A stretch of DNA of 64,000 nucleotides from Candidatus Harrisonbacteria bacterium (GTDB lineage: Bacteria; Patescibacteriota; Minisyncoccia; UBA6257; 02-FULL-45-10c), in contig JACPTS010000001.1 of NCBI GenBank assembly GCA_016192685.1, forward strand, positions 458,628 to 522,627, in the 5' to 3' direction. This document shows, piece after piece, positions 18,918 through 40,172 of this stretch. Within the stretch, counting starts at the first letter, position 1; the number at the start of each line of letters is the position of its first letter. A program made the translations under genes and the position numbers. The notes under the pieces are model-generated. The model saw only the letters and a program-made list of their open reading frames with translations, was not told the DNA's origin and ran no database searches.

Positions 18918-21113
18918 ATGGACAAAAAATCCGTAAAAGAAAGAATTGAAAAATTAAAAAAAGAAATAGAGAAATACCGGTATGCCTATCATGTTTTGGA
19001 TAAATCGCTGATTTCCGACGCGGCTTTGGATTCTTTAAAAAAAGAGCTTTTTGACCTGGAACAGCAATATCCGGAATTTATTGCGCCGGATTCGCCGACC
19101 CAAAGAATCGGAGGCCAGCCGCTGAAAGAATTTCAAAAAGTCCGGCACGGCCAGCCGATGCTTTCTTTTAACGACGCTTTTTCCAGAGAAGACATGCAAG
19201 ATTGGCTGGAGAGGCTGGAGAAGTACCTCGGAAGAACAATTACTAAGCGAGGCGATGCCTCTTCTCCGAAACCCCCGCAGCCGCGAGGCATGGTGTCGCC
19301 GCAGGCGACCGAGCGGCGAGGACTTAGCGAGTCACGCGCTGGCGGGACGAAGCGGGTTGAGGAAAGAGGTTCGCCGAGCGCCCCTTTCTATTGCGAGTTG
19401 AAGATTGACGGCCTCGCGATTGAACTGGAATATGAAAACGGCGTTTTGATTAGGGGCTCCACGCGCGGCGATGGATTGATAGGCGAGGATGTTACGCAAA
19501 ATCTAAAAACTATTGATGCTATTCCATTAAAATTAAATGTTCCAAGTTCCAAGTTTCAAGTTCCAAGAAAGCTGATTGTAAGGGGCGAAGTTTTTTTGAC
19601 TAAAAAAGAATTTGACCGGCTCAATAAGGAGCAATTAAAAAAAGGGGGAAAAATTTACGCGAATCCCAGGAATGTTGCCGCCGGCTCTATCCGTCAATTA
19701 AACCCGAAAATTACTTCCGGCAGGAAATTAGATTCTTTTCAGTATGATATTGCTTCGCCCTTCGAAGCTTTAGCGAAGGAGGGTATTCATTTTAAATTTC
19801 ACGAACAAGAGCATGAGATTTTAAAAGAAATCGGGTTTAAGATTAATCCCCAGAATGCCCCCGCGGCAACTTTAGACGAGGTTTTTAAATTTCATGAATA
19901 TTGGGCCAAGCATCGGGAGCAATTGCCTTATGAAATTGACGGGATTGTGGTAATCGTAAACAACAATAAAGAATTTGATGATGGAGGAGTGATTGGAAAA
20001 GCGCCGCGGGCGGCCATCGCTTTTAAATTTTCCGCGAAAGAAGCGACTACCATTATTAAAGATATTAAGGTCCAGATTGGAAGAACTGGCGTCCTTACCC
20101 CGGTTGCGGTTTTAAAGCCGGTGCCGGTTAGCGGAGTGACAATCAGCCACGCCACGCTTCATAATGCCGACGAAATTAAGCGGCTGGATGTCCGGGTTGG
20201 GGATACGGTGATTGTCAGCCGGGCCGGAGATGTGATTCCAAAAATCACCAAAGTTTTAAAAGAGCTTCGTCCGCGGGGGGCAAAAGAATTTGAGATGCCG
20301 AAGAAATGTCCGGTGGATAATTCGCCGGTGGTACGGGACGGAGTTGCTTATAAATGCGGCAATAAAAATTGCGGAGCGAGGAATCGGGAACAGCTTTATC
20401 ATTTTGTTTCCCGAAATGCTTTTAATCTGGAAGGCCTTGGCCCCAAAATTATTGACCGATTTTTGGATGAAGGCCTGATTTCCGATGCCGCGGATATTTT
20501 TACTTTAGAGGAAGGGGATATCGCGGTTTTAGAGCGGTTCGGGGAAAAATCAGCAAAAAATATCGTGGCAGAAGTTAAGATTAAGAAAAAAATCAGTTTA
20601 GCGCGGTTTATTTATAGTTTGGGAATTTTGCATGTTGGCGAAGAAACCTCCGGATTATTGGGAAAGGCGCTTTTGAAAATTAATCCGAAAATTGATTCGC
20701 CCAAAGAAGTTTTGGCCGCGGGCTTAAAACTTACTGAAGAAAAATTGTTTGAAATGCCGGATATCGGCCCGGCAGTTTCCAAAAGCATTTTAGAATACTT
20801 TAAAGATGCTCGCCACCAAAATTTGCTGAAAAAATTTGATGAAGTAGGTATAGAAATAGAAAGTTCAAAATTAGAAGTTAAAAGTCAGAAGTTAACTGGT
20901 TTAAGTTTTGTTTTAACCGGCGGGTTGGAATCTATGAGCCGGGAAGCGGCCAAAGAAAAAATCCGCGCTCTTGGCGGCGATGTCAATGAATCGGTTTCTA
21001 AAAATACTTCGTATGTGGTGGCGGGAAGCGAACCCGGCTCAAAATTTGAGAAGGCAAAGAAACTGGGCGTAAAAGTCATAGACGAAAAAGAATTTTTGAA
21101 AATGTTGAGTTAA
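18918..21113 (+). CDS. ligA: NAD-dependent DNA ligase
   Basis: KxDG adenylation motif ELKIDGLA, Zn-finger Cys cluster, HhH and BRCT regions; carries extra in-frame insertions (see findings). Confidence 0.85.
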   Translation: MDKKSVKERIEKLKKEIEKYRYAYHVLDKSLISDAALDSLKKELFDLEQQYPEFIAPDSPTQRIGGQPLKEFQKVRHGQPMLSFNDAFSREDMQDWLERLEKYLGRTITKRGDASSPKPPQPRGMVSPQATERRGLSESRAGGTKRVEERGSPSAPFYCELKIDGLAIELEYENGVLIRGSTRGDGLIGEDVTQNLKTIDAIPLKLNVPSSKFQVPRKLIVRGEVFLTKKEFDRLNKEQLKKGGKIYANPRNVAAGSIRQLNPKITSGRKLDSFQYDIASPFEALAKEGIHFKFHEQEHEILKEIGFKINPQNAPAATLDEVFKFHEYWAKHREQLPYEIDGIVVIVNNNKEFDDGGVIGKAPRAAIAFKFSAKEATTIIKDIKVQIGRTGVLTPVAVLKPVPVSGVTISHATLHNADEIKRLDVRVGDTVIVSRAGDVIPKITKVLKELRPRGAKEFEMPKKCPVDNSPVVRDGVAYKCGNKNCGARNREQLYHFVSRNAFNLEGLGPKIIDRFLDEGLISDAADIFTLEEGDIAVLERFGEKSAKNIVAEVKIKKKISLARFIYSLGILHVGEETSGLLGKALLKINPKIDSPKEVLAAGLKLTEEKLFEMPDIGPAVSKSILEYFKDARHQNLLKKFDEVGIEIESSKLEVKSQKLTGLSFVLTGGLESMSREAAKEKIRALGGDVNESVSKNTSYVVAGSEPGSKFEKAKKLGVKVIDEKEFLKMLS
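19249..19384 (+). repeat. GC-rich palindromic element inserted in-frame in ligA
   Basis: ~135 nt of ~65% GC with internal inverted repeats (ggcgatgcctc...gaggcat), placed just before the KxDG motif; encodes a low-complexity peptide. Confidence 0.45.
19549..19577 (+). repeat. Tandem gttccaag repeats coding VPSSKFQVPRK within ligA
   Basis: gttccaagttccaagtttcaagttccaag. Confidence 0.5.
20861..20907 (+). repeat. AAGTT-periodic insertion in ligA coding ESSKLEVKSQKL
   Basis: aagttcaaaattagaagttaaaagtcagaagttaactggtttaagtt. Confidence 0.45.
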
Positions 21114-21125
21114 GATTATAATTTA

Positions 21126-21413
21126 TTGTATATGCTTACTAAAAAGGATTTAGAACATTTGGCAGAATTGGCGAGGATTGATTTAAAAGCAGGGGAGGAG
21201 GGAAAATTATTGAAAGACCTCGGGGCGATTCTGGATTATTTTAAAGAATTACAGAGTGTGAATACCGATGGCGTAGCGCCGATGACCGGGGGAACGGAGT
21301 TTAAAAATGTATTAAGAGAAGATGCAGCTGGTGGGACTGATGATACTGGAAAGGGATCAGACGCTTTTCCGGATAAACAGGGTAGTTATTTACGAGTTCC
21401 TCCGGTTTTTTGA
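21126..21413 (+). CDS. gatC: Asp/Glu-tRNA(Asn/Gln) amidotransferase subunit C
   Basis: 95 aa, GatC-like sequence, immediately upstream of gatA. Confidence 0.7.
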   Translation: MYMLTKKDLEHLAELARIDLKAGEEGKLLKDLGAILDYFKELQSVNTDGVAPMTGGTEFKNVLREDAAGGTDDTGKGSDAFPDKQGSYLRVPPVF

Positions 21414-22846
21414 TTATGCATTCATTACATTCTTTAACTATAAAGAAATTCCATGATGGGCTATTAAAGAAAGAATTTTCCGCATTAGAAATGGCGCAGA
21501 ATTTTTTTGATTGGATTGAAAAGAAAGACGGCGAAATTATGGCTTATTTGAGTTTGAATAAAGATTTGGCAATGCGGCAGGCAGAGGAGGCGGACATTAA
21601 AATAGCCAAGGGCGAATCGCTTAGCGCCTTGACTGGAGTCCCGCTTGCTATTAAAGACAATATTTTAATTGAAGGATTGACGGCGACTGCCGCTTCCAAA
21701 ATTTTAAAAGATTATACGGCGAGTTATGACGCGACGGTGATTAAAAAACTAAAAACCGCCGGAGCGGTTTTCCTTGGGAAAACCAATTTGGATGAATTTG
21801 CCATGGGGTCTTCAACGGAAAATTCCGCTTTCCAGAAAACTAAAAATCCGCATGACCTTTCGCGCGTTCCCGGCGGTTCTTCCGGCGGTTCAGCGGCGGC
21901 AGTAGCGGCAAATATGGCAGTGGCAGCTCTTGGTTCGGATACCGGCGGTTCTATCCGCCAGCCAGCGGCTTTTTGCGGAGTGGTGGGATTAAAACCTACT
22001 TACGGAGCGGTTTCCCGTTTTGGCTTGATTGCGATGGCTTCCAGTTTAGACCAGATCGGCCCGTTTACGAAAACCGTTGAAGATTCAGCTATTTTATTTA
22101 AAGAAATTTTGGGACAAGATGGTTTAGATGCCACTTCAGCTGAGGTTTCGTATGGCAATGAGCTTTTAAATCCCAAATTGGAGGATATCAAAAAATTAAA
22201 AGTCGGCATTCCGGAAGAATATTTCGTGGAAGGATTGGATAAAGAAGTGACAGAAAAAGTTCAGGAAGCGATTAAAACGATTGAAAGTTTGGGTTTAAAA
22301 ACCAAGAAAATCAGCTTGCCACATACCAAATACGCGCTATCCTGTTATTACATTATTATGCCGGCAGAGGTTAGCTCCAATTTGGAGCGGTTTGACGGCA
22401 TTAGATATGGCACGCGCCAGAAAGCGGATAATTTGTTAGAATTGTATAAGAAAGACAGAGAAATGGGATTCGGCTCGGAAGCTAAGCGAAGGATTCTTCT
22501 TGGAACTTTTGTTTTATCTTCCGGATATTATGACGCGTATTACGCAAAAGCTCAGAAAGTCCGCCAATTGATTAAAAAAGATTTTGAAGAGGCATTTAAG
22601 GAGGTGGATGTAATTCTTACGCCGGTTACGCCAACGCCAGCTTTTAAAATCGGTGAGAAAATCAGCGACCCGCTTTCCATGTATCTTTCCGATGTTTTTA
22701 CTATTCCCGTTAATCTTGCCGGCTTGCCCGCAATTTCCATACCGGCAAAGTCGTCAGGCGGATTGCCGGTTGGTTTTCAATTAATCGGCAAGAAATGGCA
22801 TGAAGCGGATATTTTGGGAATCGGGCAATATTACGAACGTTTATAA
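21410..22846 (+). CDS. gatA: Glutamyl-tRNA(Gln) amidotransferase subunit A
   Basis: Amidase signature GGSSGGSAAAVA, Ser-cisSer-Lys family, 478 aa. Confidence 0.85.
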   Translation: MIMHSLHSLTIKKFHDGLLKKEFSALEMAQNFFDWIEKKDGEIMAYLSLNKDLAMRQAEEADIKIAKGESLSALTGVPLAIKDNILIEGLTATAASKILKDYTASYDATVIKKLKTAGAVFLGKTNLDEFAMGSSTENSAFQKTKNPHDLSRVPGGSSGGSAAAVAANMAVAALGSDTGGSIRQPAAFCGVVGLKPTYGAVSRFGLIAMASSLDQIGPFTKTVEDSAILFKEILGQDGLDATSAEVSYGNELLNPKLEDIKKLKVGIPEEYFVEGLDKEVTEKVQEAIKTIESLGLKTKKISLPHTKYALSCYYIIMPAEVSSNLERFDGIRYGTRQKADNLLELYKKDREMGFGSEAKRRILLGTFVLSSGYYDAYYAKAQKVRQLIKKDFEEAFKEVDVILTPVTPTPAFKIGEKISDPLSMYLSDVFTIPVNLAGLPAISIPAKSSGGLPVGFQLIGKKWHEADILGIGQYYERL

Positions 22847-22851
22847 ATTTT

Positions 22852-23496
22852 ATGGCGGGACCAAAAAAACCAGAAACCAAGAGTACGGCAACCGGTCTAG
22901 AATTATTAGTTTTTATTTTATTGCTTACCGCGATTATTCCGGTTATCGCCGGTTTTTTTGCTTTTACTTTTAACCCGCTGAAGTTTTTATCGGAAGTTCG
23001 GGCGTATTTTGCGCCGTTTTTTGAAAGATATTTATTTTGGCTGGAAGCATCGGCAGTTATTTTTTCGGCGCTTTTTTTGTGGGGAATTATTTATATTTTT
23101 ATCAAAACCAATTATTTAGAAATTAAACGGGAGCAATTTTTGGATATTTTAGGAAAACCCTATGTTTCCCGCCGCCGTTCTTTGAAGGGCTGGAAGCAAA
23201 TCCAAAGCCGCCTGCAGTCGCAAGAGCAGAACCAGTGGAAATTGGCGATTCTGGAAGCCGACCATATTTTAAATGAAATTCTGAAAATGTCCGGCTATCT
23301 TGGGGCGAAATTAGAAGATAAGCTGGAATTGATTACGCCTGCTCAGCTTTCTAATGTGGAAGAGGTGAAAAAAGTTCATCAAATCCGCCATAAAATCGCG
23401 AGCGACCCAGGTTTTCTAATTACCAACGAGGAAGCTCGGGAAATTATTGATATATATAAAAAGTCTTTTATTGAGTTGAATTTAATCCAAGATTAA
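22852..23496 (+). CDS. Hypothetical membrane protein
   Basis: Two TM segments near the N-terminus, no recognised motif. Confidence 0.4.
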   Translation: MAGPKKPETKSTATGLELLVFILLLTAIIPVIAGFFAFTFNPLKFLSEVRAYFAPFFERYLFWLEASAVIFSALFLWGIIYIFIKTNYLEIKREQFLDILGKPYVSRRRSLKGWKQIQSRLQSQEQNQWKLAILEADHILNEILKMSGYLGAKLEDKLELITPAQLSNVEEVKKVHQIRHKIASDPGFLITNEEAREIIDIYKKSFIELNLIQD

Positions 23497-23530
23497 GGTA
23501 TTTTTAAAATAGTTTTGCTTACTAGATATA

Positions 23531-23887
23531 TTGTTTAGGATGAAACTGAAAGCGGGGATTGAGGGGGAGTTTGAGAAGTGGCGATTAAAAATGTTGAATG
23601 CCCAAAGAATGGAAGTGCTAAGGGGATTTTCAGAAATCAGCGAGTTGCTGGAAGCTAATCGTCCCACAAAGGAAGCGGCAGAAATTTTAGCTAGAAGCAA
23701 ATTAAAAATAAGAATTAAATTGCAAGATCTGGGATATCTGGCGTTGGCGGTTTCCCTATTTCATGAAAAAGGCAGAAATTTTCGGTTTCATTGGAATCAA
23801 TTTTGGCAAGGGGAAGATTGGGCTTTGGATATGGAAGTTTCTGGGCGGGAAAGAGTTTTTAGTCCTTATGCCTCAGAAAAAGAATAA
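23531..23887 (+). CDS. Hypothetical protein
   Basis: ORF followed by the terminator aaccccgcttagcggggttt. Confidence 0.35.
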   Translation: MFRMKLKAGIEGEFEKWRLKMLNAQRMEVLRGFSEISELLEANRPTKEAAEILARSKLKIRIKLQDLGYLALAVSLFHEKGRNFRFHWNQFWQGEDWALDMEVSGRERVFSPYASEKE

Positions 23888-23905
23888 CCCCGCTTAGCGG
23901 GGTTT
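23886..23905 (+). terminator. Intrinsic terminator
   Basis: ccccgc ttag gcgggg followed by ttt. Confidence 0.5.
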
Positions 23906-23937
23906 ATGTTTGGTTAGAAAAATGATAAAATTTAAGG

Positions 23938-24612
23938 GTGCCAATATTTAGAACCAAAAACGAAAATTTTTTTAAGAAATGGTCACCAGAAATGGCTTAT
24001 GTTTTAGGATTTTTCGTCGCGGACGGGAATTTAACGCTTGGAAAACGAGGAAATCATTATATTGAATTTACTTCTTGTGATAAAGAAATTTTGGAGAGAA
24101 TAAGGAAAAGTCTTGATAGTAATCATAAAATTAGCGCGCGTAAACTCCAGAAAGAAAATCACAAAATTTGTTACAGGATTCAAGTTGGTAGCAAAATTAT
24201 ATTTGAAGATTTAGTTAATTTTGGCTTCAAACCGAATAAAAGCAAAAGATTGGCTTATCCCAAAGTGCCCTCCGCGTATTTTCATCATTTTGTACGCGGC
24301 TATTTTGATGGCGATGGCCACGTGACAGAAGGATTTTATAAAAGCCGGGATAGAAAAAAGCCAAAACATTTACTTTTTGCCGGTTTTACTTCAGGAACCA
24401 AAAGTTTCTTAGAAAAATTGAAGTATAATTTAACAAAAGTTCGTATAGTTAATGGCGGCACACTATATTATTCAAAGGGCTACAGATTAAATTTTTCAAT
24501 TAGCGATAGTTTAAATCTTTATAAATTTCTTTACAAAAGCCTAGATAATCAATTATACTTAGCAAGGAAGAAAAAAGTATTTGAAAAGTATTTAAATGCG
24601 GTAGTAGCTTAG
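23938..24612 (+). CDS. LAGLIDADG homing endonuclease (double-motif), free-standing
   Basis: Two LAGLIDADG motifs, LGFFVADGNL and VRGYFDGDGHV; last 15 nt overlap the 5' exon of tRNA-Asp. Confidence 0.75.
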   Translation: MPIFRTKNENFFKKWSPEMAYVLGFFVADGNLTLGKRGNHYIEFTSCDKEILERIRKSLDSNHKISARKLQKENHKICYRIQVGSKIIFEDLVNFGFKPNKSKRLAYPKVPSAYFHHFVRGYFDGDGHVTEGFYKSRDRKKPKHLLFAGFTSGTKSFLEKLKYNLTKVRIVNGGTLYYSKGYRLNFSISDSLNLYKFLYKSLDNQLYLARKKKVFEKYLNAVVA

Positions 24613-24886
24613 TGGCCTAAAGCGCCTCCCTGTAGGTAACTGCAGCTCCTAATGGAAACTTTGGGATGAACATTCTGGGATAACGGTGAAGCCTTAAATA
24701 AAATTTATTTATGGTAATACCGTGGGAACCGAGCACATAAATCTTTATGTGCTCGGGCGCCGTAGAGACTAGATACCAGAGCGTCTAACCCTAATTTTAG
24801 GTAAGATGAAGATATAGTCCACGCCATTACGAAAGTAGTGGATTCGTGCACGGAGGAGACCGTGGGTTCAAATCCCATCTACCGCG
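24598..24886 (+). tRNA. tRNA-Asp(GUC) interrupted by a ~215-nt group I intron (exons 24598-24633 and 24849-24886; intron 24634-24848)
   Basis: 5' exon gcggtag ta gctt agtggccta aagc g cctcc ctgt; 3' exon cac ggagg agacc gtggg ttcaaat cccat ctaccgc g. Acceptor and anticodon stems complement perfectly, anticodon loop is CUGUCAC, discriminator G73. Intron has a GTAGAGACTAGA core and an ...AGATATAGTCC P7 strand similar to the Azoarcus tRNA intron; candidate P1 is exon ctgt with intron gcag (24642-45); omega-G at 24848. Confidence 0.75.
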
Positions 24887-24888
24887 CA

Positions 24889-24927
24889 ATTATAAAAGCA
24901 GAGCTTGTGCTCTGCTTTTATAATTTT
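24889..24927 (+). terminator. Intrinsic terminator after tRNA-Asp
   Basis: aattataaaagcagagc ttgt gctctgcttttataatt followed by ttt. Confidence 0.6.
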
Positions 24928-25044
24928 GATTGGAAGGGATTTGAAGGGTATTCCAAAAACATAAACTGCTTTATGTTTTTGGAAACCCCGGCTTTGAAGG
25001 AGGAGCGAGCCTGTGCTTTGCACGTGCGAGCGACGGGTGAAAAG

Positions 25045-25063
25045 AAATCCCATCTACCGCGCA
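25045..25063 (+). repeat. 19-nt direct repeat of the tRNA-Asp 3' end (aaatcccatctaccgcgca) inside a degenerate T-arm-like fragment
   Basis: Exact copy of 24870-24888, 175 nt downstream; preceded by gggtgaaaagaaatccc, which resembles a decayed T-arm. Confidence 0.5.
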
Positions 25064-25130
25064 TTAGAAAATCTTAGCGAAGAATGAGCTTTAGATTTTC
25101 TTATGCCCCGCCATTGGCGGGGCTACTTAA

Positions 25131-25640
25131 TTAATTTTTCACTGGATTTGAAATAACAATAATCCTTTTTTTCCAGCCAGTTAGGAATTTTTTAAGAGAA
25201 ACTGACCTTCGGATATTCTTTTTGGCGTCGGGGTCGTGATAAAAAATTTTATTTTTTTCCATTCCTACCAGTACTATTAAGTGCCCGCCTCTTTTTGGAT
25301 TAAAGGCATTATAAATAGAGGCCAAGAGAGGATGTTTTTTTAGGTGAATTTTTAATTGAGGAACGGCAATGTTTAAATCAAGTTTCGCCCAATCAAAATT
25401 TTTACCTTTGGCGCCATATTTTTTGGCAAGTTCTACCAGGCTGCGATGTTTCCAGCCGATTCCCGGCAAATAAGCGTCAATTTTAAGCCCCAGTTTTAAT
25501 AAATCATCCGGCTTAGTTTTTCTGCCTGAATATTCCAAAAGCATCGCCAGGCTTACAATGCCGCAGCTTTTTTTGCGCCATTTTGGGTCTTTAATATGAA
25601 GGTGTTGGGAATAAGCTGGGACGAGATGCCGGACTTTCAT
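25131..25640 (-). CDS. Papain-like C39-family-like cysteine peptidase
   Basis: Cys motif KKSCGIVSLAML, downstream His GGHLIVLVG; 169 aa. Confidence 0.5.
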   Translation of the reverse strand: MKVRHLVPAYSQHLHIKDPKWRKKSCGIVSLAMLLEYSGRKTKPDDLLKLGLKIDAYLPGIGWKHRSLVELAKKYGAKGKNFDWAKLDLNIAVPQLKIHLKKHPLLASIYNAFNPKRGGHLIVLVGMEKNKIFYHDPDAKKNIRRSVSLKKFLTGWKKRIIVISNPVKN

Positions 25641-26089
25641 AAGATTCTTTTAAGCATAACCACTGGCCCTTTTTCTTTAATAATTTCGTGTAAATTGGTT
25701 TCTTCAACGCCTTTTTTAGATGAGCCGTGAATTACTTTGTTATTGCCAATATACATCGCTACATGGCCAATGTAGACTTCACATTCCGGAAAAAGTTCGT
25801 CATCATAATGGCCTTTGGTCCCGCGGAAAAACAGCAAATCCCCGATTTGTAAATCGGAGATTTGCTGTCCTGAGCTCGTCGAAGGATTTACATTAATTTC
25901 TTTTCCGGCTTGCGCCGCCTGAAGAATGGTGCTTCTTGGAATTTCAATGCCTAGGTGTTTATATACATATTGAGTAAAAGAAGAACAATCTAAAAATTGT
26001 GGAATTTCTTCCGGCTTGGCAGCGTATTTATAAGGAGTGCCAATCAGTGAGTGGGCGATGGTTAAAATTTTTTCTTGATTTTCATTCAT
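25637..26089 (-). CDS. NlpC/P60 family cell-wall hydrolase
   Basis: Catalytic Cys DCSSF, His GHVAMYIG, 150 aa; 4-nt overlap with the downstream peptidase gene. Confidence 0.6.
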   Translation of the reverse strand: MNENQEKILTIAHSLIGTPYKYAAKPEEIPQFLDCSSFTQYVYKHLGIEIPRSTILQAAQAGKEINVNPSTSSGQQISDLQIGDLLFFRGTKGHYDDELFPECEVYIGHVAMYIGNNKVIHGSSKKGVEETNLHEIIKEKGPVVMLKRIL

Positions 26090-26110
26090 ATTCTATATAT
26101 AATATAGCAT

Positions 26111-26431
26111 AGCGGGGTAGAGCAGTAGTTAGCTCGCCTGGCTCAATAACAATATATTTGGGCGTCTTAATAAGTAATTATTAAGAAGATTACTCGTCAA
26201 ATTCGGGGAAGTCTTAAGTTGCATTTTGCGGCCTGATAATCCCGAGCTAAAATTTAATACTTTAATTGTATTAAATAAATGTGTAGAGACTAGATGGCGA
26301 GGTCGCTTTTGGCGATAAGGTATAGTCCAGACCACAAACCGTAGCACATAAAATTTTATGTGCTCGGGCGATGAAAATCGTAGTAGGTAAGCATAACCAG
26401 GAGGCCGTTGGTGCAAATCCAACCCCCGCGA
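26111..26431 (+). tRNA. tRNA(CAU) (Met or Ile2) interrupted by a ~248-nt group I intron (exons 26111-26143 and 26392-26431)
   Basis: 5' exon agcgggg ta gagc agtagtta gctc g cctgg ct; 3' exon cataa ccagg aggcc gttgg tgcaaat ccaac ccccgcg a. Intron carries GTGTAGAGACTAGATGG and TATAGTCC core elements plus a GAGCACATAA-family hairpin in the P9 region; omega-G at 26391. Position 1:72 is an A:G mismatch. The splice site (33/34) is inferred and P1 is not cleanly identified. Confidence 0.6.
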
Positions 26432-26444
26432 CATGTTTTAAACA

Positions 26445-26476
26445 AAAAATACCTTGATATAAGGTATTTTTTGTTA
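26445..26476 (+). terminator. Intrinsic terminator after the intron-containing tRNA(CAU)
   Basis: aaaaaatacctt gatat aaggtatttttt. Confidence 0.6.
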
Positions 26477-26481
26477 GCATT

Positions 26482-26609
26482 GCGGGGGTTGGATAGGGAA
26501 GGGGTCGGGAAACGGGAGTTTCCCGTGTCGGAAGGCACCGAGCACATAAAATATTTTATGTGCTCGGGTCGGAAAACCGAGGGTTTCCGAGCATTCTAAT
26601 CCCCCGCGA
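26482..26609 (+). ncRNA. tRNA-like structured RNA of unknown function (~128 nt) containing a GAGCACATAA-family hairpin
   Basis: Ends pair like an acceptor stem (gcggggg ... cccccgc g); internal hairpins cgggagtttcccg, ccgagcacataaaatattttatgtgctcgg and ggaaaaccgagggtttcc; flanked by two intrinsic terminators; no canonical D or T loops. Confidence 0.3.
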
Positions 26610-26614
26610 CTAAT

Positions 26615-26645
26615 TTAAAAATACCCGTGTGGGTATTTTTAAATT
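26615..26645. terminator. Bidirectional intrinsic terminator
   Basis: aaaaataccc gtgt gggtattttt, between the tRNA-like RNA and a convergent GT2 gene. Confidence 0.55.
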
Positions 26646-27328
26646 TTGAATCTGTATTTTAAAATTGTCCAGATTCCAATCAAGCCATCTTTAAAGGAAA
26701 TTTTCTTCCCTTCTTTAAAAGTTCGCGGCTGGTAGCGGACCGGCACTTCTTTAATAAGGCCGCCGCGCTTTAAAATTTTACAGGTAACTTCTTCGCAGAA
26801 TTCAAAACCATTGCTTTTAAGATTAAGAGATTTAAGAAAATCGGTCCGGAAAAGTTTGTAGCCGGTATTAATGTCCGTAAGATGCGAGCCAAAAAATAAA
26901 TTGGTTATAAAAGTTAAAGACCGGCCGCCAAAATAATAATGAAAATAGCCTCTGCCGGCGTTGCCAAGATTGCGTGACCCATAAACCGCCGCGGTATTTT
27001 CATCCATCACGGTAAGCATCCTCGGCCAATCTGCCGGATCATATTCTAAATCCGCGTCTTGAATTATTGCGTAGTCCCCGGTGAGATGAGGTAGGGCGGT
27101 TTTAATTGCCGCGCCTTTGCCCAGATTTTTTTGGTGGCGCAAAACCAGATATTCCGAACTTAATTTTTCCAGAATCTCTGGGGTTTTATCCGTAGAGCCG
27201 TCATCAACGATAATAATTTGTTTTTGGATTGGGCTAAGATTAACGCTCGCCACCCTCCGCAATATTTCCGCAATGGTATTTTTTTCGTTATAAACCGGAA
27301 TAATTATGGAAAGAGTTTTTAGATTCAT
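26639..27328 (-). CDS. Family 2 glycosyltransferase (dolichol-phosphate mannosyltransferase-like)
   Basis: IIIPVYNE...DDGSTD...DADL motifs (DxD), 229 aa. Confidence 0.7.
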   Translation of the reverse strand: MNLKTLSIIIPVYNEKNTIAEILRRVASVNLSPIQKQIIIVDDGSTDKTPEILEKLSSEYLVLRHQKNLGKGAAIKTALPHLTGDYAIIQDADLEYDPADWPRMLTVMDENTAAVYGSRNLGNAGRGYFHYYFGGRSLTFITNLFFGSHLTDINTGYKLFRTDFLKSLNLKSNGFEFCEEVTCKILKRGGLIKEVPVRYQPRTFKEGKKISFKDGLIGIWTILKYRFKI

Positions 27329-27352
27329 AATAATAGTTTAGAATAAGTAAGT

Positions 27353-28891: not shown

Positions 28892-28904
28892 TAATTACAA
28901 AATT

Positions 28905-28976
28905 GCCTGTGTAGCTCAGTGGTAGAGCGAGGTCTTCATAAGGCCGAGGTCGCAGGTTCGATCCCTGCCACAGGCA
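28905..28976 (+). tRNA. tRNA(CAU) (Met or Ile2), intron-less
   Basis: gcctgtg ta gctc agtggta gagc g aggtc ttcataa ggccg aggtc gcagg ttcgatc cctgc cacaggc a. Confidence 0.75.
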
Positions 28977-29005
28977 CTAAATCAGTTCAAAGCAATTTTA
29001 ATTTT

Positions 29006-29017
29006 TGCCACAGGCAC
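29006..29017 (+). repeat. 12-nt direct repeat of the tRNA(CAU) 3' end (tgccacaggcac)
   Basis: Exact copy of 28966-28977, 40 nt downstream, abutting the start of the 29022 ORF. Confidence 0.4.
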
Positions 29018-30756: not shown

Positions 30757-30759
30757 AAT

Positions 30760-31143: not shown

Positions 31144-31150
31144 TAACGGT

Positions 31151-33100: not shown

Positions 33101-33179
33101 TTTTTTGTTTGATTTTAACTAGTAGATTTGCTATACTAATAAAGTAGAAATAGATATAAAAAGGCCGGGCCTTTTTTAA

Positions 33180-35129
<1,950 letters not shown>

Positions 35130-35132
35130 TTC

Positions 35133-35268
35133 GCTACCTATCTGTCTACCGGCACCGGCGTTCGCCGACTCCTGCGGTCGGCGCCGCCTACGCCTCGCCC
35201 CGATTTTTCGCCTTCGGCGAAACCTAGCAAATCGGGGCTCCGTAGTTGCCGTACGACAGACAGGTAGC
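35133..35268. repeat. GC-rich, highly palindromic intergenic element (~136 nt) with 14-bp terminal inverted repeats
   Basis: gctacctatctgtc ... gacagacaggtagc termini; internal hairpins ccccgattt..aaatcgggg and cgcc ttcg gcga; ~65% GC in an AT-rich genome. Confidence 0.6.
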
Positions 35269-35313
35269 TCACTCTGATTGACGGGGGGTGAATGAATTAG
35301 GTATAATATTAAA

Positions 35314-35502
35314 ATGTTTTCAAAACTAACCTCATTTTTACAAGAATCCAAGCAAGAGCTGATGCGGGTTAATTGGCCGAGCCGGGAAGATACTACCCGG
35401 CTAACTCTGGCAGTTATTGTAATTTCTTTGCTGGTAGCGCTTTTTTTGGGAGTCCTGGATTTTATTTTCAGCAGCCTTTTGAATACTTTTTTACTAAAAT
35501 AA
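35314..35502 (+). CDS. secE: Preprotein translocase subunit SecE
   Basis: 62 aa, single C-terminal TM, position upstream of nusG. Confidence 0.7.
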   Translation: MFSKLTSFLQESKQELMRVNWPSREDTTRLTLAVIVISLLVALFLGVLDFIFSSLLNTFLLK

Positions 35503-35506
35503 TTTA

Positions 35507-36076
35507 ATGAAAGCTAATAAAGAATCAAAAATAGTGGAAATTAAGAGCAAAGAACGGCATTGGTATGCGGTGCATACTTATTCCGGCTATGAAGACGCCG
35601 TGGCGCGCTATTTGAAACAGCGGGTGGATTCGCTATCCATGAATGATAAAATTTTCAATGTTTTAGTTCCGAAAGAAACCAAAATTAAGATTAAAAACGG
35701 CAAGCGCCGGACTGTGGAGGAAAAAATTTATCCTGGCTATGTGCTGGTGGATATGACTTTAACCGAAGATTCCTGGTATGTGGTTCGGAATACGCCGCGA
35801 GTGACCGGTTTTGTCGGGCCGGACTCCACCACCCCAGTCCCGCTTTCTAAAGATGAAATTGACGTCTTGATGGCCCGAATGTCGGGGGAGGAAAAGAAGT
35901 TTAAGATTGAATTGAGGCCTGGAGAAATGGTAAAAGTTATTGACGGCCCGTTTAAGGATTACGACGCGAAAGTGGCGGAAGTGGATGATGAAAAAGCTAA
36001 GGTGAAAGTGCTGGTTCCGATTTTCGGCCGCGACACCGCGGTAGAGTTAGATTCATTACAAGTACAAAAGATATAA
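35507..36076 (+). CDS. nusG: Transcription termination/antitermination factor NusG
   Basis: NGN domain plus KOW (GEMVKVIDGPFKDYDAKV); secE-nusG-rplK order. Confidence 0.85.
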   Translation: MKANKESKIVEIKSKERHWYAVHTYSGYEDAVARYLKQRVDSLSMNDKIFNVLVPKETKIKIKNGKRRTVEEKIYPGYVLVDMTLTEDSWYVVRNTPRVTGFVGPDSTTPVPLSKDEIDVLMARMSGEEKKFKIELRPGEMVKVIDGPFKDYDAKVAEVDDEKAKVKVLVPIFGRDTAVELDSLQVQKI

Positions 36077-36088
36077 TAAATTAAAGTT

Positions 36089-36514
36089 ATGGCAAAAATA
36101 GTTAAAACAATTCTTAAATTACAGCTGGAAGCCGGAAAAGCAAATCCTGCTCCTCCAGTGGGCACGGCGCTTGGGCCGCATGGCGTGAATATTCAGGATT
36201 TCTGCAAGAAATTTAATGACGCGACCAAAGATATGGCCGGTGATGTGGTGCCGGCGGAAATTACGATCTATGAAGACCGGAGTTTTGATTTTAAATTAAA
36301 AACCCCGCCAGCATCGGCGCTTCTTAAAAAAGCCGCGGGCATTGAAAAAGGTTCTGGCGATTCGCTTAAAAATAAGGTTGGTAAAGTTACTAAAGCGGAG
36401 GTACGGAAAATTGCGGAGCGGAAGATGGTGGATTTAAATGCTTATGACCTGGATGCCGCGGAAAAAATCATTGCCGGCACCGCCCGGAATATGGGGATTG
36501 AGGTGGTTGATTAG
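36089..36514 (+). CDS. rplK: 50S ribosomal protein L11
   Basis: 141 aa, conserved L11 N-terminus [14 protein letters not shown]. Confidence 0.9.
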
Positions 36515-36519
36515 AAGTT

Positions 36520-36555
36520 TAAAAACTGCTACTTTATGAAGTAGCAGTTTTTAAT
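36520..36555 (+). terminator. Intrinsic terminator after rplK
   Basis: aaaaactgctactt tatg aagtagcagttttt. Confidence 0.65.
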
Positions 36556-36568
36556 TTATAATTTAAAA

Positions 36569-37309
36569 ATGGATAAACCGAGGGGAAGATTTATTGTTTT
36601 GGATGGTTTGCCGGGATGCGGGAAAAGCACACAGGCGAGATTGCTTTCGGAAAGATTGCTGAACGCGGTTTTAAACGTTGAGCCGACTAAGGCGCTGTTC
36701 GGCGCCGTAATCCGCGCTTATATTGAACGCCAAGCAATTCCGGAGGAATTGCTGGAACAATGTTATCGTTATAAATCTTCGGAAAATGATTTTTGGCCAA
36801 TTGCCCATCACATTATTAATCAGCTGAAACTGAAAATGCCGCTGGGCGAGATGGAAAGGCAAATTCTTTTTGTGGCTGACAGGGTTTATGATTTAGAAAT
36901 GAATATTTTGCCGGCTTTGGCTGCTGGCAAAACCGTTATTCAGGACCGCTATTTTTTCAGCACTTTGGCCTTTGGCTATTCGGGAGGGTTAGAGATTGAG
37001 TGGTTATGGAAAATTCACCAGGAGGCTTTTGCCGCCAGTTCTAAAATTGGGGGTCTTTGGAAGCCGGATTTAACAGTTATTTTTGATTTGGATCCCGCAG
37101 TATCAATGGCCCGGCAAAAAGCCTCCGGAAAAGTTTTGGATATTTTTGAAGAAAAACCGGAACGATTGGATAAAATAAGAGAGGCATATCTTCAATTATC
37201 TAAAAGAACTGATCTTTCTACCGGCATTTCTGTTATCAATGCCGATCAGCCCGCAGAAAAAGTTTTTTCGCAATTGGAGCAATTAATTAAATATCAAACT
37301 GCCGTTTAA
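36569..37309 (+). CDS. tmk: Thymidylate kinase family (d)NMP kinase
   Basis: P-loop LDGLPGCGKSTQ, DRY-like QDRYFFS; 246 aa. Confidence 0.5.
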   Translation: MDKPRGRFIVLDGLPGCGKSTQARLLSERLLNAVLNVEPTKALFGAVIRAYIERQAIPEELLEQCYRYKSSENDFWPIAHHIINQLKLKMPLGEMERQILFVADRVYDLEMNILPALAAGKTVIQDRYFFSTLAFGYSGGLEIEWLWKIHQEAFAASSKIGGLWKPDLTVIFDLDPAVSMARQKASGKVLDIFEEKPERLDKIREAYLQLSKRTDLSTGISVINADQPAEKVFSQLEQLIKYQTAV

Positions 37310-37353
37310 GAGGCAGTTTTTAATTTTTTAAAATTTCTGTTAAATTTAAATAA

Positions 37354-38658
37354 ATGATAGCTAAATTACCGGTTCAAAAAATTGTTTCCGACCCGATTTT
37401 GGGGCTGATTGATATCAGCAAGGTTTTGCCGATGGTGGATGTCCGGGAATTCCAGTCGCTGGCTTATAAATATCAGCTTGGTTTGGCGTTTTTGCTTTTC
37501 CCTTCCGCCACTCACACCCGCAAACAGCATTGCTTGGGCGCTTACCAGCGGACTAAAGAATTAACCGGGCGCTGGGTGGAAAGCGGGATGATTACTAAAG
37601 ACCAGGCCCGGAATGTCAATGCTTACGCGCTTTATCATGATATCGGCCATGGTCCGTTTTCCCATACCGTGGAGCCGCTTTTTGACCTTTTACCCGGAGC
37701 AAAAAAATCAAAATTGCGCGCTGATGACGCCATGGGAATTGAGATAGCGCGAAATTTGAAAAAGGAGATTGAGGCGACCGGAGCCGAATTTGAATCTTTA
37801 ATGAAATTTATGAAACACGAAGACCCTTTGTACTTGGCAGTTCATGATAAGAATTTAGGAATGGAAAAATTTGATTATTTAACCAGAGACGCTTTTTACA
37901 CCATTAAAGAAATGCCGGGGGTGGATTATTTATCCCGCTATATCTATTTTGTGGATGGGCAAGTGGCGGTAGATGAGCGGGTGATTGACCAGGCAAAAGC
38001 AATCCAGGAATTTTATATAAAAATGTCCAAGCATGTTTATTTGCGCAAAAAATCCGCGATTTTACAGCGTTTAGTCCAAAAAATGGCTTACGAGCTGTTA
38101 AAAGAAGGGATGACGGTCGGGGAGATTTGGAAACTTACGGATTTTGGGCTTTTGGGAAGATTGGAAATTTCTCCCAACCCGCTTATCAGGAATTATTATG
38201 GTCGGCTGATGGCGGGTGATTTGCCGAAGATTGCCATTGAATTTAAGCAGGAGCAATTTGTTCAATTAGATGAAAAGCGGGGAGATAAGTCTTTGCACAC
38301 TTTTGGGCTGCCGGAGAAGGTTTTAAATAAAGTTCTTGCCCAAGAAGAGGTTTCCGGCATTAAATTTTTAGCTGATTTTGAAAAAGGAATTGCCGCGGCC
38401 GCCGGCATTCCGGAGGACAGCGTTATGGTGGTACCGCCGATGTCTCACCACCGTTTTGTTCCGGAAGACGTGAAAGTTTACGGCCGAGACGGCAGTATTG
38501 TTCTTCTTAGCGATTTTTACCCCAATCATTTTGCCGCTATGACTGAATACGGAAAATCCCATCATCTTTTGCGGATTTGCGCCTTTCCGGAGCATCGGGA
38601 TAATTTGGAAGCCAAAGCAGAGAAAATTAAGGATTATCTTTTGGAATTTTCAAAATGA
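37354..38658 (+). CDS. HD-domain phosphohydrolase (dGTPase-like)
   Basis: HD motif H...HDIGHGPFSH...D. Confidence 0.55.
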   Translation: MIAKLPVQKIVSDPILGLIDISKVLPMVDVREFQSLAYKYQLGLAFLLFPSATHTRKQHCLGAYQRTKELTGRWVESGMITKDQARNVNAYALYHDIGHGPFSHTVEPLFDLLPGAKKSKLRADDAMGIEIARNLKKEIEATGAEFESLMKFMKHEDPLYLAVHDKNLGMEKFDYLTRDAFYTIKEMPGVDYLSRYIYFVDGQVAVDERVIDQAKAIQEFYIKMSKHVYLRKKSAILQRLVQKMAYELLKEGMTVGEIWKLTDFGLLGRLEISPNPLIRNYYGRLMAGDLPKIAIEFKQEQFVQLDEKRGDKSLHTFGLPEKVLNKVLAQEEVSGIKFLADFEKGIAAAAGIPEDSVMVVPPMSHHRFVPEDVKVYGRDGSIVLLSDFYPNHFAAMTEYGKSHHLLRICAFPEHRDNLEAKAEKIKDYLLEFSK

Positions 38659-40172
38659 AATATATGCCAACAATTGGTTTAGAGATTCATTCGGAGCTTA
38701 AAACAGCAACGAAAATGTTTTGTGATTGTCCGAACGACCCGGATGAGAAGCACCCCAATACCAATGTCTGCCCGATTTGCTTGGGACATCCGGGAGTTTT
38801 ACCGACCATTAATAAAAAAGCCGTAGAGTCAATTATTAAAATTGGTTTCACGGTTAGCGGGAAAATTAATGAAAATTTTAAATTTGACCGGAAAAATTAT
38901 TTTTATCCGGATTTGCCGAAAGGTTACCAGATTTCCCAATATGATTTGCCGATTGTGAAAGGCGGCAGTCTGGATATTTCCGATAGACTGGGAATGACTA
39001 AAATTGTTTATTTAGATAGAGTGCATTTAGAAGAAGACGCCGCGAGGCTAGTACACGGCGGTAGCCCTTCGACAAGGGCTTCGACTGAGCTCAGCCGAAT
39101 GTCCTCAGGGCAACAAGCTTCGCTTGTTGATTTTAATCGTGGCGGTGTTCCGCTGATGGAGTTAGTTACCGAACCCAATATGCATACAGCCGAAGAAGCG
39201 GTAGCTTTTGCCAAAGAATTACAGTTGATTTTGCGGTATTTGGAAGTTTCGGACGCGGATTTGGAAAGAGGCCAGATGAGATTTGACGCGAATATTAGTT
39301 TGACGAACGATCAACAACCAACGACTAACGACAAGTTAGGGACTAAAGTTGAAATCAAGAATTTAAATTCTTTTGCGGCATTGGAACAAGCAATTCAACA
39401 CGAAATAGAGCGCCAAACCGAAGTTTTAGAAAGCAGTAAGTTTGTAAAGCAAGAAACTCGCGGCTGGGATGACGTAAAAAAGAAAACTGTCAGCCAGCGG
39501 TCAAAAGAAGAAGCCCATGATTACCGTTATTTCCCGGAACCGGATTTGCCGCCGCTGGAAGCTTCGGCTTTTGATTTAGCGAGTTTGAAACTAGCTGTTC
39601 CGGAATTGCCCAAAGAAAAAAGGCAGCGTTTTAAAGAACAGCTTGGCTTAAATTTTGAGCAGGCCGATCTTTTGGCGGAAGATCGCCAAGCCGCCGCTTA
39701 TTTTGAAGAAGCGATTTCGGAATTAGAGGCAGACAGCGGTTTATCAGCCGGCAAAGAAAAAATCCAGCTGGCATTTAATTATTTAACCAGTGATCTCCGC
39801 GGTTTGATGAAAGAATACGAATTAAGCTTTGAAAGCTTAAAAATTACTCCGGAGAACTTTGGGGATTTAATTGAGATGATTTCTAAAAAAGAAATTTCCA
39901 GCCGCACCGCCAAAGATTTATTAGTGAAGATGCTGGAGGGCGTAGACCCCCGAACACTGGTAGAAAATGAAGGACTGGCTCAAGTATCGGAGGAAAGCGC
40001 CTTATTAGAAACCATTAAAAAGGTTATTTCGGAAAATCCGGCGGCAGTTGCGGATTATAAAAAAGGAAAATCCAACGCCTTGCAGTTTTTAGTTGGCAAA
40101 GCAATGGCGGAACTTGGGGGCAGAGGGAACCCATCGGTTTTAAAATCCTTATTTGAAAAAGAATTGGAGTGA
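38655..40172 (+). CDS. gatB: Asp/Glu-tRNA amidotransferase subunit B
   Basis: GatB N-terminal CxxC, HLEEDA motif, C-terminal GatB_Yqey region; contains a GC-rich in-frame insertion. Confidence 0.85.
   Translation: MKYMPTIGLEIHSELKTATKMFCDCPNDPDEKHPNTNVCPICLGHPGVLPTINKKAVESIIKIGFTVSGKINENFKFDRKNYFYPDLPKGYQISQYDLPIVKGGSLDISDRLGMTKIVYLDRVHLEEDAARLVHGGSPSTRASTELSRMSSGQQASLVDFNRGGVPLMELVTEPNMHTAEEAVAFAKELQLILRYLEVSDADLERGQMRFDANISLTNDQQPTTNDKLGTKVEIKNLNSFAALEQAIQHEIERQTEVLESSKFVKQETRGWDDVKKKTVSQRSKEEAHDYRYFPEPDLPPLEASAFDLASLKLAVPELPKEKRQRFKEQLGLNFEQADLLAEDRQAAAYFEEAISELEADSGLSAGKEKIQLAFNYLTSDLRGLMKEYELSFESLKITPENFGDLIEMISKKEISSRTAKDLLVKMLEGVDPRTLVENEGLAQVSEESALLETIKKVISENPAAVADYKKGKSNALQFLVGKAMAELGGRGNPSVLKSLFEKELE
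39035..39130 (+). repeat. GC-rich palindromic element inserted in-frame in gatB
   Basis: Hairpins agccctt cgac aagggct, ctgagctcag and caacaagc ttcg cttgttg directly after the HLEEDA motif; shares the 9-mer ccgcgaggc with the ligA element. Confidence 0.45.

What the first reader, a model, noticed from the sequence alone, without database searches (positions are those of the whole stretch)
19249..39130. GC-rich palindromic elements: two in-frame (ligA, gatB) and one intergenic copy (gyrB/secE)
Three 95-136 nt segments of ~60-65% GC stand out against the AT-rich background, and each is densely self-complementary. They are 19249-19384 inside ligA just before the KxDG motif, 39035-39130 inside gatB just after HLEEDA, and 35133-35268 between gyrB and secE. 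The intergenic copy has 14-bp terminal inverted repeats. All three contain tetraloop hairpins (cgcc ttcg gcga; caacaagc ttcg cttgttg) and shared short motifs (ccgcgaggc, gttcgcc). The genic copies preserve reading frame and add low-complexity Gly/Ser/Arg/Pro peptides. This is the pattern expected of a MITE/RPE-like element that tolerates insertion into ORFs. A spurious 81-aa Arg-rich minus-strand ORF (35106..35351) is a by-product of the intergenic copy.
Basis: seen in the sequence. Interest (0 to 1): 0.7.

Follow-up and report, generated by a model that had tools for sequence, protein, structure and literature searches.

The report
In-frame palindromic mobile elements in Patescibacteria
Two of the three flagged GC-rich segments (inside the DNA ligase gene and between gyrB and secE) are copies of one apparently undescribed family of about 150-base folded, hairpin-like repeats that is scattered through the genomes of the tiny "candidate phyla radiation" bacteria and can sit, translated, inside essential genes; the third segment (in gatB) is only a variable protein loop.

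Summary
The window is from a Candidatus Harrisonbacteria (Patescibacteria/CPR) genome, 42% GC. All three segments exist and are GC-rich, but they are not one thing.

The ligA segment (19242-19382, 47 codons, ending 6 residues before the catalytic KxDG lysine) and the gyrB/secE spacer segment (35126-35274) belong to one family. It has a conserved five-helix single-strand fold. The spacer copy lies in the opposite orientation, with its sense strand on the minus strand. A covariance model built without the spacer copy finds it at 45 bits, against 18 bits or less for anything else in the window.

I found about 40 copies in about 25 Patescibacteria genomes and metagenomes, up to 9 in one genome. 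They lie in spacers and in-frame in LigA, MnmA, LepA, TsaD and a class-V aminotransferase, in both orientations.

Syntenic relatives lack the spacer copy. LigAs that carry the insert are polyphyletic.

The outer stem differs between copies but stays complementary. Cores can be 100% identical within a genome while the arms differ.

The gatB segment is not a member. It is a hypervariable loop with a 27-nt local expansion.

Best reading: a new family of non-autonomous mobile elements that behaves like Rickettsia palindromic elements (RPEs). How it moves is unknown. No Rfam match or literature was found.

The parts
19242..19382 (+). Family copy 1, in-frame in ligA (47 codons, LigA residues 109-155). 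The outer stem arms are about 19248-19267 and 19361-19380. The core GAAACC...GGGTTGA is 19268-19360. The P4 hairpin is 19295-19309.
   Evidence: The covariance model R1 scores 111 bits over 19244-19380. The insert falls cleanly between residues 113 and 114 of solved E. faecalis LigA, and the catalytic lysine K162 lies 6 residues after the insert ends. The insert is absent from the nearest LigA homologues. AlphaFold gives pLDDT below 50 for residues 111-153, with confident flanks.
35126..35274 (-). Family copy 2, a divergent subfamily. It sits in the gyrB-secE spacer with its sense strand on the minus strand. The hairpin proper is 35133-35268.
   Evidence: R1 scores 45.1 bits at E about 5e-10 over the full model length, and this copy was not in the seed. 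Fold z = -8.1 on the minus strand. The copy is absent from the syntenic relatives L003 and L005, whose spacers are 48 and 41 nt against 184 nt here. Close relatives occur in L038 and L005.
18918..21113 (+). ligA, the host gene of copy 1 (NAD-dependent DNA ligase, 731 aa).
   Evidence: Pfam domains and a split adenylation-domain match; homologues.
33183..35129 (+). gyrB. Its stop codon lies 3 nt before the hairpin of copy 2.
35278..35307 (+). A sigma-70-like promoter for secE (TTGACG-18-TATAAT), immediately downstream of copy 2. In relatives the equivalent promoter directly follows the gyrB stop codon.
35314..35502 (+). secE.
35106..35351 (-). An 81-aa Arg-rich ORF created by read-through of copy 2. 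It is most likely not a gene.
   Evidence: no Pfam family. ORF callers make similar small ORFs over spacer copies elsewhere, such as P0241 and P0243.
39057..39119 (+). NOT a family member. This is the hypervariable GatB loop after HLEEDAxxLxH: 21 aa here against 6 aa in canonical relatives. Within it, 39077-39103 is a 27-nt expansion absent from the closest homologue.
   Evidence: No R1 hit. Sense-strand fold z = -1.4.

Best explanation
The ligA insert and the gyrB/secE spacer element are two copies of a non-autonomous, mobile (or formerly mobile) palindromic repeat family specific to Patescibacteria. The family behaves like Rickettsia palindromic elements.

Anatomy. Each copy is about 140-200 nt, and one strand folds into a defined shape:
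- P1: a long outer stem whose sequence differs from copy to copy.
- A near-invariant tandem G.A/G.A internal loop (33/38 and 30/38 copies on its two sides).
- P2: a short stem, AACCy/GGGTT.
- A three-way junction carrying two branches.
- Branch one is P3, then a 7-nt bulge (GCATGGT), then the variable hairpin P4.
- Branch two is the P5 hairpin, with loop (C)GCTG(G).
- Conserved linkers join these parts: GAGGAC-AAGCGA and CGAAGC.

Behaviour. Copies land, or persist, only where they do no harm. That means spacers, and surface loops of proteins when the insert is in-frame and free of stop codons. In proteins it is translated into a disordered Gly/Ser/Arg/Pro-rich loop. In this window that loop lies 6 residues before the LigA active-site lysine. 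Within a genome the cores are kept alike or exchanged between copies, while the arms stay with the site.

Shown here:
- family membership;
- the fold, supported by covariation;
- asymmetry between the two strands;
- multiple copies per genome;
- filled and empty orthologous sites;
- in-frame occupancy of five protein families, in both orientations.

Inferred, not shown:
- that the folded single strand (ssDNA or RNA) is the substrate of an unidentified enzyme acting in trans;
- that the insert is translated and nearly neutral;
- that core similarity within a genome reflects gene conversion or re-insertion.
For: Family and fold. Conserved blocks and a common architecture appear in 6, then 32, then 38 copies.

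Covariation on the MAFFT alignment A8: 81.6% of cells paired against 65.9% in shuffles; 35 of 46 pairs changed on both sides; score 0.448 against 0.189 or less when the pairing is slid.

Covariation on the 38-copy model-fitted alignment A9: 89.5% paired; 41 of 46 pairs changed on both sides; score 0.56 against 0.17.

Outer arms co-vary copy by copy. Cognate arm duplexes average -13.2 kcal/mol against -4.6 for non-cognate arms, with 0 of 10000 permutations as low.

Strand asymmetry inside the pairs: G.T 72 against A.C 10; G.A/A.G 127 against T.C/C.T 7.

Both window copies are found by one model, at 111 and 45 bits. The next hits are 17.7 bits or less and are plain hairpins.

Dispersal. There are 30 exact-pattern matches in species-representative genomes, almost all Patescibacteria and up to 9 in one MAG. 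The model finds further copies.

In-frame hosts are LigA, MnmA (3 genomes, same site, antisense), LepA, TsaD (antisense) and a class-V aminotransferase.

Presence/absence. The gyrB-secE spacer is empty in two syntenic relatives. The ligA site is empty in the sister lineages. LigAs that carry the insert form at least four separate lineages, and short 'SASA' remnants occur at the site in two homologues.

Core against arms. Cores are 100% identical at three sites of one genome where the arms are 61-79% identical. MnmA copies from two genomes have arms 84% identical but cores only 51% identical. The spacer copy and L038 share about 75 identical core nucleotides, yet P1 and P3 are wholly replaced by other complementary sequences.

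Peptide. The insert is predicted to be disordered while its flanks are confident.
Against: - No transposase, or any other recurrent neighbouring gene, was found.
- No target-site duplication could be defined.
- No movement has been observed, and I could not search the rest of this genome.
- The G.T against A.C asymmetry comes mainly from spacer copies; counts for genic copies are too small.
- The same site is occupied in several lineages (LigA, MnmA). This could reflect old inheritance with losses rather than repeated insertion.
- A9 is fitted to the model, so its pair counts lean towards the structure.
- Translation of the insert is inferred only from the preserved frame.
Confidence: 0.7

Rival explanations
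1. The family is primarily a functional structured RNA: a small RNA, a cis-regulatory or stability element, or a ribozyme. On this view its genes and pseudo-copies happen to be dispersed, and the genic copies are by-products.
For: There is very strong covariation in five helices, with highly conserved unpaired nucleotides and tandem G.A motifs. The non-Watson-Crick pairs are strand-specific. Conservation extends across distant Patescibacteria.
Against: Copies lie in both orientations relative to their host transcripts, including antisense inside MnmA and TsaD and antisense to the gyrB-secE operon. There is no conserved genomic neighbourhood. Presence is patchy even between close relatives. No Rfam family matches. 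I did not look for promoter or terminator signals around the family copies; the one scan run covered the window's gyrB-secE spacer.
Confidence: 0.15
2. There is no mobility. The inserts are old, vertically inherited protein loops (lineage-specific extensions under protein-level selection), and the spacer copies are unrelated look-alikes.
For: The same LigA and MnmA sites are occupied in several genomes. The element is only slightly better conserved than the flanking ligA sequence: 83-90% for the core against 73-82%. The arm-encoded peptides are conserved between MnmA orthologues.
Against: The same nucleotide family occurs in spacers and in five unrelated proteins, in different frames and in both orientations, so no common peptide is conserved. 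Conservation follows base pairing, not codons. Identical cores sit at different sites of one genome. The LigA peptide is predicted to be disordered.
Confidence: 0.05
3. The segments arise locally and independently through mutation that generates hairpins (quasi-palindrome template switching or slippage) in permissive loops, without any transposing unit.
For: This fits the gatB loop: a 27-nt expansion with short perfect palindromes inside an older insert. It also fits the 7-mer array at the LigA loop of L045. Arm-to-arm correction could keep stems complementary.
Against: It cannot explain the long conserved primary-sequence blocks shared by about 40 copies at unrelated sites and in unrelated genomes.
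Confidence: 0.05

Closest known systems
Rickettsia palindromic elements (RPEs; Ogata et al. 2000, as summarised in PMC10969869)
   Same: Both are palindromic repeats of about 100-150 bp with no coding capacity of their own, present in many copies. A large share of copies is inserted in-frame into unrelated housekeeping genes, adding a peptide that the protein fold tolerates. The mobilising machinery is unknown. (RPE features; features here.)
   Different: The host phylum is different (Patescibacteria, not Rickettsiales), and no sequence relationship to RPEs was tested. This family has a GC-rich branched core (a three-way junction with five covarying helices and tandem G.A motifs) rather than a simple hairpin. 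Its outer stems are specific to each copy. Its cores are homogenised within genomes. Copies occur in both orientations within genes.
Bacterial MITEs that fuse to ORFs (for example Coxiella QMITE, intragenic ERIC, Correia elements; PMC5896051, PMC10969869)
   Same: All are small, non-autonomous, capable of forming a hairpin, dispersed, and sometimes in-frame within genes.
   Different: This family has no constant terminal inverted repeats, because the arms differ between copies. No target-site duplication was recognised and no related insertion sequence was found. Conservation lies in internal junction nucleotides, not at the termini.
REP/REPIN elements mobilised by RAYT (IS200/IS605-like) transposases, and other elements that move as folded single-stranded DNA
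   Same: All rely on a fold of one strand, with conserved unpaired bases, as the likely recognition feature. All are multicopy and mostly intergenic.
   Different: REPs are 20-40 nt and carry GTAG or CGTC tags (PMC3733652). No RAYT or TnpA gene was seen near any copy. REPs are extragenic, whereas this family is often intragenic.
GC clusters and translational-bypass 'byp' elements of AT-rich yeast mitochondrial genomes (from my own knowledge, not tested here)
   Same: Both are GC-rich palindromic mobile sequences in an AT-rich genome that can sit inside protein-coding genes.
   Different: The organelle elements are much shorter. Byp elements are skipped by the ribosome, whereas here the frame and the absence of stop codons are preserved, which argues that the insert is translated.

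Membership tests
RPE-like in-frame palindromic repeats (functional class) | A dispersed, multicopy repeat of about 100-200 nt that is capable of forming a hairpin. | tested here: met
   About 40 copies, up to 9 in one MAG. Fold energies run from -57 to -109 kcal/mol, with a common architecture.
RPE-like in-frame palindromic repeats (functional class) | In-frame, stop-free insertion in unrelated housekeeping ORFs. | tested here: met
   LigA, MnmA, LepA, TsaD and a class-V aminotransferase.
RPE-like in-frame palindromic repeats (functional class) | The inserted peptide is compatible with the host protein fold (on the surface, away from the core). | tested here: inconclusive
   The LigA insert maps between residues 113 and 114 of a solved LigA. 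It is modelled as a disordered excursion with confident flanks. It lies only 6 residues from the catalytic lysine, and enzyme activity was not tested.
Rickettsia RPE families proper (RPE-1 to RPE-10) | Sequence homology to the Rickettsia RPE consensus sequences. | not tested
   No RPE consensus sequences were available in the tools. The host phylum differs. I do not file the element as an RPE.
MITE | Constant terminal inverted repeats shared by all copies. | tested here: not met
   The arms are complementary within a copy but differ between copies: mean identity is 0.41 for the outer 18 nt of the 5' arm, and the cognate 3' arm is the best partner in 23 of 32 copies.
MITE | Target-site duplication flanking the element. 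| tested here: inconclusive
   No consistent direct repeat appears at the hairpin ends. In ligA the filled allele replaces 15 nt of the empty allele rather than duplicating them.
MITE | A parent insertion sequence or transposase with matching ends. | tested here: not met
   No gene family recurs within 2.5 kb of the copies apart from the host genes. This was a limited test, since partners need not be adjacent.
Any described RNA family (Rfam 15) | A match to a curated covariance model. | tested here: not met
   There was no gathering-threshold hit at either copy. Only chance-level hits appeared at E<=10.
Intein, or group I/II intron, in ligA | A Hint/splicing domain, or an intron RNA core. | tested here: not met
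   The insert is 47 aa with no Pfam domain and is predicted to be disordered. No intron model matched. The same window does contain a genuine group I intron elsewhere, and Rfam detected it.
The family described here (model R1) | Membership of the gatB segment 39035-39130. | tested here: not met
   No R1 match at E<=10 with filters off. No closing stem, and sense-strand fold z = -1.4. Part of the segment is conserved coding sequence.

The most novel reading that the evidence does not exclude
The conserved core, bounded by the tandem G.A junction (invariant in about 80-87% of copies), may itself be an active unit. It could be a folded single-stranded DNA or RNA cassette that swaps between pre-existing arm pairs. 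On that reading it would be a new kind of site-specific 'core exchange' or homing, or a new ribozyme or retro-mobile RNA, and not a passive MITE. This would explain three observations:
- Cores are 100% identical across sites in one genome while the arms stay with their site.
- P1 and P3 can be wholly replaced by other complementary sequences next to about 75 unchanged nucleotides.
- The same sites in LigA and MnmA carry different core subfamilies in different genomes.
Probability: 0.2. Interest if true: 0.85.

Novelty: new variant of a known kind. Interest (0 to 1): 0.66.

Why it matters
In-frame 'selfish DNA' inside essential genes has been a textbook curiosity, documented at high frequency essentially only in Rickettsia. 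How it moves has remained unknown for 25 years.

This is a second system: independent, far more widespread and structurally much better defined. It occurs in a huge uncultivated radiation with tiny genomes. That gives comparative leverage: hundreds of genomes, clear covariation, and filled and empty alleles. With it one can ask what mobilises such elements and how they shape proteins, here by adding a disordered loop next to the LigA active site.

It also matters for practical work. These elements inflate protein lengths, create spurious Arg-rich ORFs, and can mislead alignments and phylogenies of CPR marker genes.

Tried and rejected
- One sequence family for all three segments. Pairwise alignments are at chance level, and no repeat family links them. 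The family link between ligA and the spacer emerged only with homologues and a covariance model. GatB stayed outside it.
- A census of host proteins using the inserted peptide. The profile search of 1.84 billion representative proteins gave only two true hits, both small ORFs over spacer copies, plus one false hit, P0242. The word-indexed search with a 15-peptide alignment gave six small ORFs and did not even return LigA. The approach is uninformative, probably because of low complexity and mixed reading frames.
- The idea that the variable P3 stem is a guide or is copied from the target. The longest matches between P3 and the 300-nt flanks are at chance level. The ligA arms are not derived from the empty-site sequence.
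- A target-site duplication. None could be recognised, and extended folds pick up spurious outer pairs.
- An associated transposase or other neighbouring gene. None was found.
- A phage vector. There were 0 matches in the viral contigs.
- An intrinsic terminator role for the spacer copy. No T-run follows it, and the scan found no terminator there.
- An integron attC analogy (AAC...GTT boxes, single-strand fold). Rejected on context: the copies are not in cassette arrays and sit inside housekeeping genes.
- The gatB insert as a copy of another dispersed repeat. The only other hit in the window to its CCTTCGACAAGCTYAGGGC motif has three mismatches inside an unrelated ORF. Among the loci, only the orthologous gatB matched.
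- The metagenome scan with a 20-mer from the spacer copy. It gave 6 hits, of which only L038 is a true copy.
- Literature. Four keyword searches and one sequence-string search found no description of such elements in CPR. Absence from that library is not proof of novelty.


Full report
**Source and observation**

The window has 42% GC. Its LigA and GatB are identical to proteins of a Candidatus Harrisonbacteria MAG (Patescibacteria/CPR) on a 608-kb contig.

Their GC contents are 69.9%, 64.0% and 59.4%. The first is the GC maximum of the window, the second is in the top 0.2%, and the gatB segment only in the top 1.7%.

Folded alone, only the spacer segment is exceptional: z = -7.4 on the plus strand and -8.1 on the minus strand. 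The ligA segment gives -1.5 and the gatB segment -1.4 on their sense strands.

The three segments share no significant sequence. GTTCGCC occurs 11 times in the window. CCGCGAGGC in gatB is conserved coding sequence.

**ligA**

The insert is LigA residues 109-155 (19242-19382). In solved E. faecalis LigA, residues 113 and 114 are contiguous. The window protein aligns up to residue 113 on one side and from residue 114 on the other, and the catalytic KxDG lysine (K162) lies 6 residues after the insert ends.

Among 120 close LigA homologues, most have a 9-12 residue loop at this position. Six carry a related insert (SPKPPQPRG...KRVEE). Three carry a variant of it. Several carry unrelated inserts.

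In a tree built without the loop, the LigAs that carry the insert fall in at least four separate lineages. The window's LigA is nested among homologues that lack the insert. Two homologues keep short 'SASA' remnants at the site.

At the DNA level the empty allele reads GRKIK-SNEKT-FYCELK. The filled allele replaces the SNEKT codons.

AlphaFold models residues 111-153 as a low-confidence coil (pLDDT about 30) between a confident helix and the strand that carries the active site.

**A real family**

A profile of the inserted peptide hit two small ORFs. These proved to be spacer copies of the same DNA element in other CPR contigs.

DNA from three LigA homologues, plus those two spacer copies, showed long conserved blocks around variable but complementary stretches.

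A pattern from the 3' block matched 30 places in species-representative genomes. Almost all are Patescibacteria, with 9 in one MAG and 2 in a Harrisonbacteria genome. There were no matches in viral contigs.

Individual folds agree on a single architecture:
- P1: a long outer stem.
- A tandem G.A/G.A internal loop.
- P2: AACCy/GGGTT.
- A three-way junction.
- P3, then a 7-nt bulge (GCATGGT), then the hairpin P4.
- The linker GAGGAC-AAGCGA.
- P5: a hairpin with loop (C)GCTG(G), often with internal tandem G.A.
- CGAAGC, leading back into P2.

**Structure tests**

On the MAFFT alignment A8 (18 copies):
- 81.6% of cells pair, against 65.9% in shuffles (0 of 500 as high).
- 35 of 46 pairs change on both sides.
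- The covariation score is 0.448, against 0.189 or less when the pairing is slid.

On the 38 model-aligned copies (A9) the figures are 89.5% paired, 41 of 46 pairs, and 0.56 against 0.17. This alignment is fitted to the model, so it leans towards the structure.

The outer arms are specific to each copy. Cognate arms bind at -13.2 kcal/mol on average and non-cognate arms at -4.6, with 0 of 10000 permutations as low.

Non-canonical cells are lopsided between strands. There are 72 G.T against 10 A.C, and 127 G.A/A.G against 7 T.C/C.T. One strand is therefore the one that folds. This signal comes mainly from spacer copies.

**The spacer copy is a member and gatB is not**

Model R1 was built from 18 copies and did not include the spacer element. 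I ran it over the whole window with filters off.
- It scores the ligA copy at 111 bits.
- It scores the gyrB/secE element at 45.1 bits (E about 5e-10) on the minus strand, over the full model length, with all helices and the conserved bulge, loop and linkers aligned.
- Everything else scores 17.7 bits or less and matches only the outer stem (plain hairpins).
- Nothing is found in gatB.

The spacer copy belongs to a subfamily with further members in a metagenome contig (L038, 49 bits) and in a Harrisonbacteria relative (L005, 39 bits).

Two syntenic relatives have gyrB-secE spacers of only 48 and 41 nt, with the secE promoter directly after the gyrB stop codon. In the window the 136-nt hairpin sits exactly between the stop codon and the -35 box.

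**Host range**

Copies lie in spacers and, in-frame and free of stop codons, in these proteins:

| Host protein | Where found | Orientation |
|---|---|---|
| LigA | 4 loci | sense |
| Class-V aminotransferase | 1 locus | sense |
| LepA | 1 locus | sense |
| MnmA | 3 genomes, same site | antisense |
| TsaD | 1 locus | antisense |

The reading frames differ between hosts, so no single peptide is conserved.

No gene family recurs next to the copies. No target-site duplication could be defined. The variable stems do not match the flanking DNA.

**Arms and cores**

- In MAG CAYIWD01 three copies, one of them inside MnmA, have 100% identical cores, but their arms are only 61-79% identical.
- The MnmA copies of two different genomes have arms 84% identical and cores only 51% identical.
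- The window's spacer copy and L038 share about 75 identical core nucleotides, while P1 and P3 are entirely different yet still complementary.
- The same LigA and MnmA sites carry different core subfamilies in different genomes.

So the arms travel with the site and the cores with the genome. This points to gene conversion or re-insertion of cores. I cannot tell which.

**gatB**

After HLEEDAxxLxH the canonical loop is 6 residues. The window has 21, and CPR relatives range widely, with many unrelated inserts.

The closest homologue already has a shorter version (GGSPSTSLGQQT). The window adds 27 nt (39077-39103) that contain short perfect palindromes.

This is local expansion in a permissive loop, not a copy of the family.

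**Interpretation**

The best reading is a new Patescibacteria-wide family of non-autonomous palindromic elements that works like Rickettsia palindromic elements (features of those from PMC10969869).

It differs from them in several ways: a branched, covarying, strand-specific fold; outer stems specific to each copy; and cores homogenised within genomes.

It is not in Rfam 15. I found no description of it in the searchable literature.

How it moves is unknown. The strand-specific fold suggests a single-stranded DNA or RNA intermediate recognised by an enzyme acting in trans.

Noticed in passing
window 26112-26433 (+): A tRNA-Met(CAT) gene is interrupted in its anticodon loop by a 248-nt group I intron (26144-26391). 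Rfam Intron_gpI scores 62.4 bits. ARAGORN missed the gene in the genomic sequence but calls tRNA-Met on the spliced sequence.
   Followed up: yes
window 61074-61190 (+): A LOOT RNA (RF03000) match at 84.8 bits, overlapping the start of the ORF 61099-62361.
   Followed up: no
window 17650-17673, 24731-24754, 26342-26365; similar hairpin at 57483-57532: A second small palindromic repeat, GAGCACATAA-n4-TTATGTGCTC, occurs three times (0 of 100 shuffles give three). One copy lies inside the group I intron. The others look like terminators after genes.
   Followed up: partly
window 17293-17346 and 17425-17478: A 54-nt perfect direct repeat, 132 nt apart, inside the large ORF 14903-17635.
   Followed up: no
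GatB homologues P0141, P0171, P0215, P0234 (other CPR genomes): These GatB proteins carry a 139-aa in-frame PD-(D/E)XK (PF13366, GxxExxY) domain at a different GatB site. This is another kind of insertion into an essential gene in the same radiation.
   Followed up: no
LigA loop before KxDG in homologues P0016, P0055, P0104, P0113, P0116; L045:10001-11971: The same loop carries unrelated inserts in other CPR LigAs (for example ...IRVNPLLPQRNPRQSVS and ...ACLPAGRQ...). In the window's sister lineage it carries a tandem array of the 7-mer CCTACGA. The loop is a general hotspot, or a permissive site.
   Followed up: partly
L002:1287-1470, L012:211-399, L024 (two copies), L036:3371-3557: A 36-nt perfect hairpin (CCCCGTAAACTCAACTGAGTTGAGTTACGGGG plus CGAG) is nested inside the family core, with a 4-nt duplication (CGAG). 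This is a palindrome inserted within a palindrome.
   Followed up: partly
L007:13363-13725, L045:1-99: Genes with 23S_rRNA_IVP/bAvd domains lie near ligA/gatCA in relatives. The L007 gene lies between gatC and gatA; the L045 gene is truncated at the locus edge, about 10 kb upstream of ligA. These are accessory proteins of diversity-generating retroelements. No link to the repeat family was established.
   Followed up: no
L015, L023 (QYPD01, labelled Spirochaetia MAG): Two family copies occur in a MAG labelled Spirochaetia. A neighbouring ORF is similar to a protein of the window, so the contigs may be mis-binned CPR DNA rather than evidence of a wider host range.
   Followed up: no
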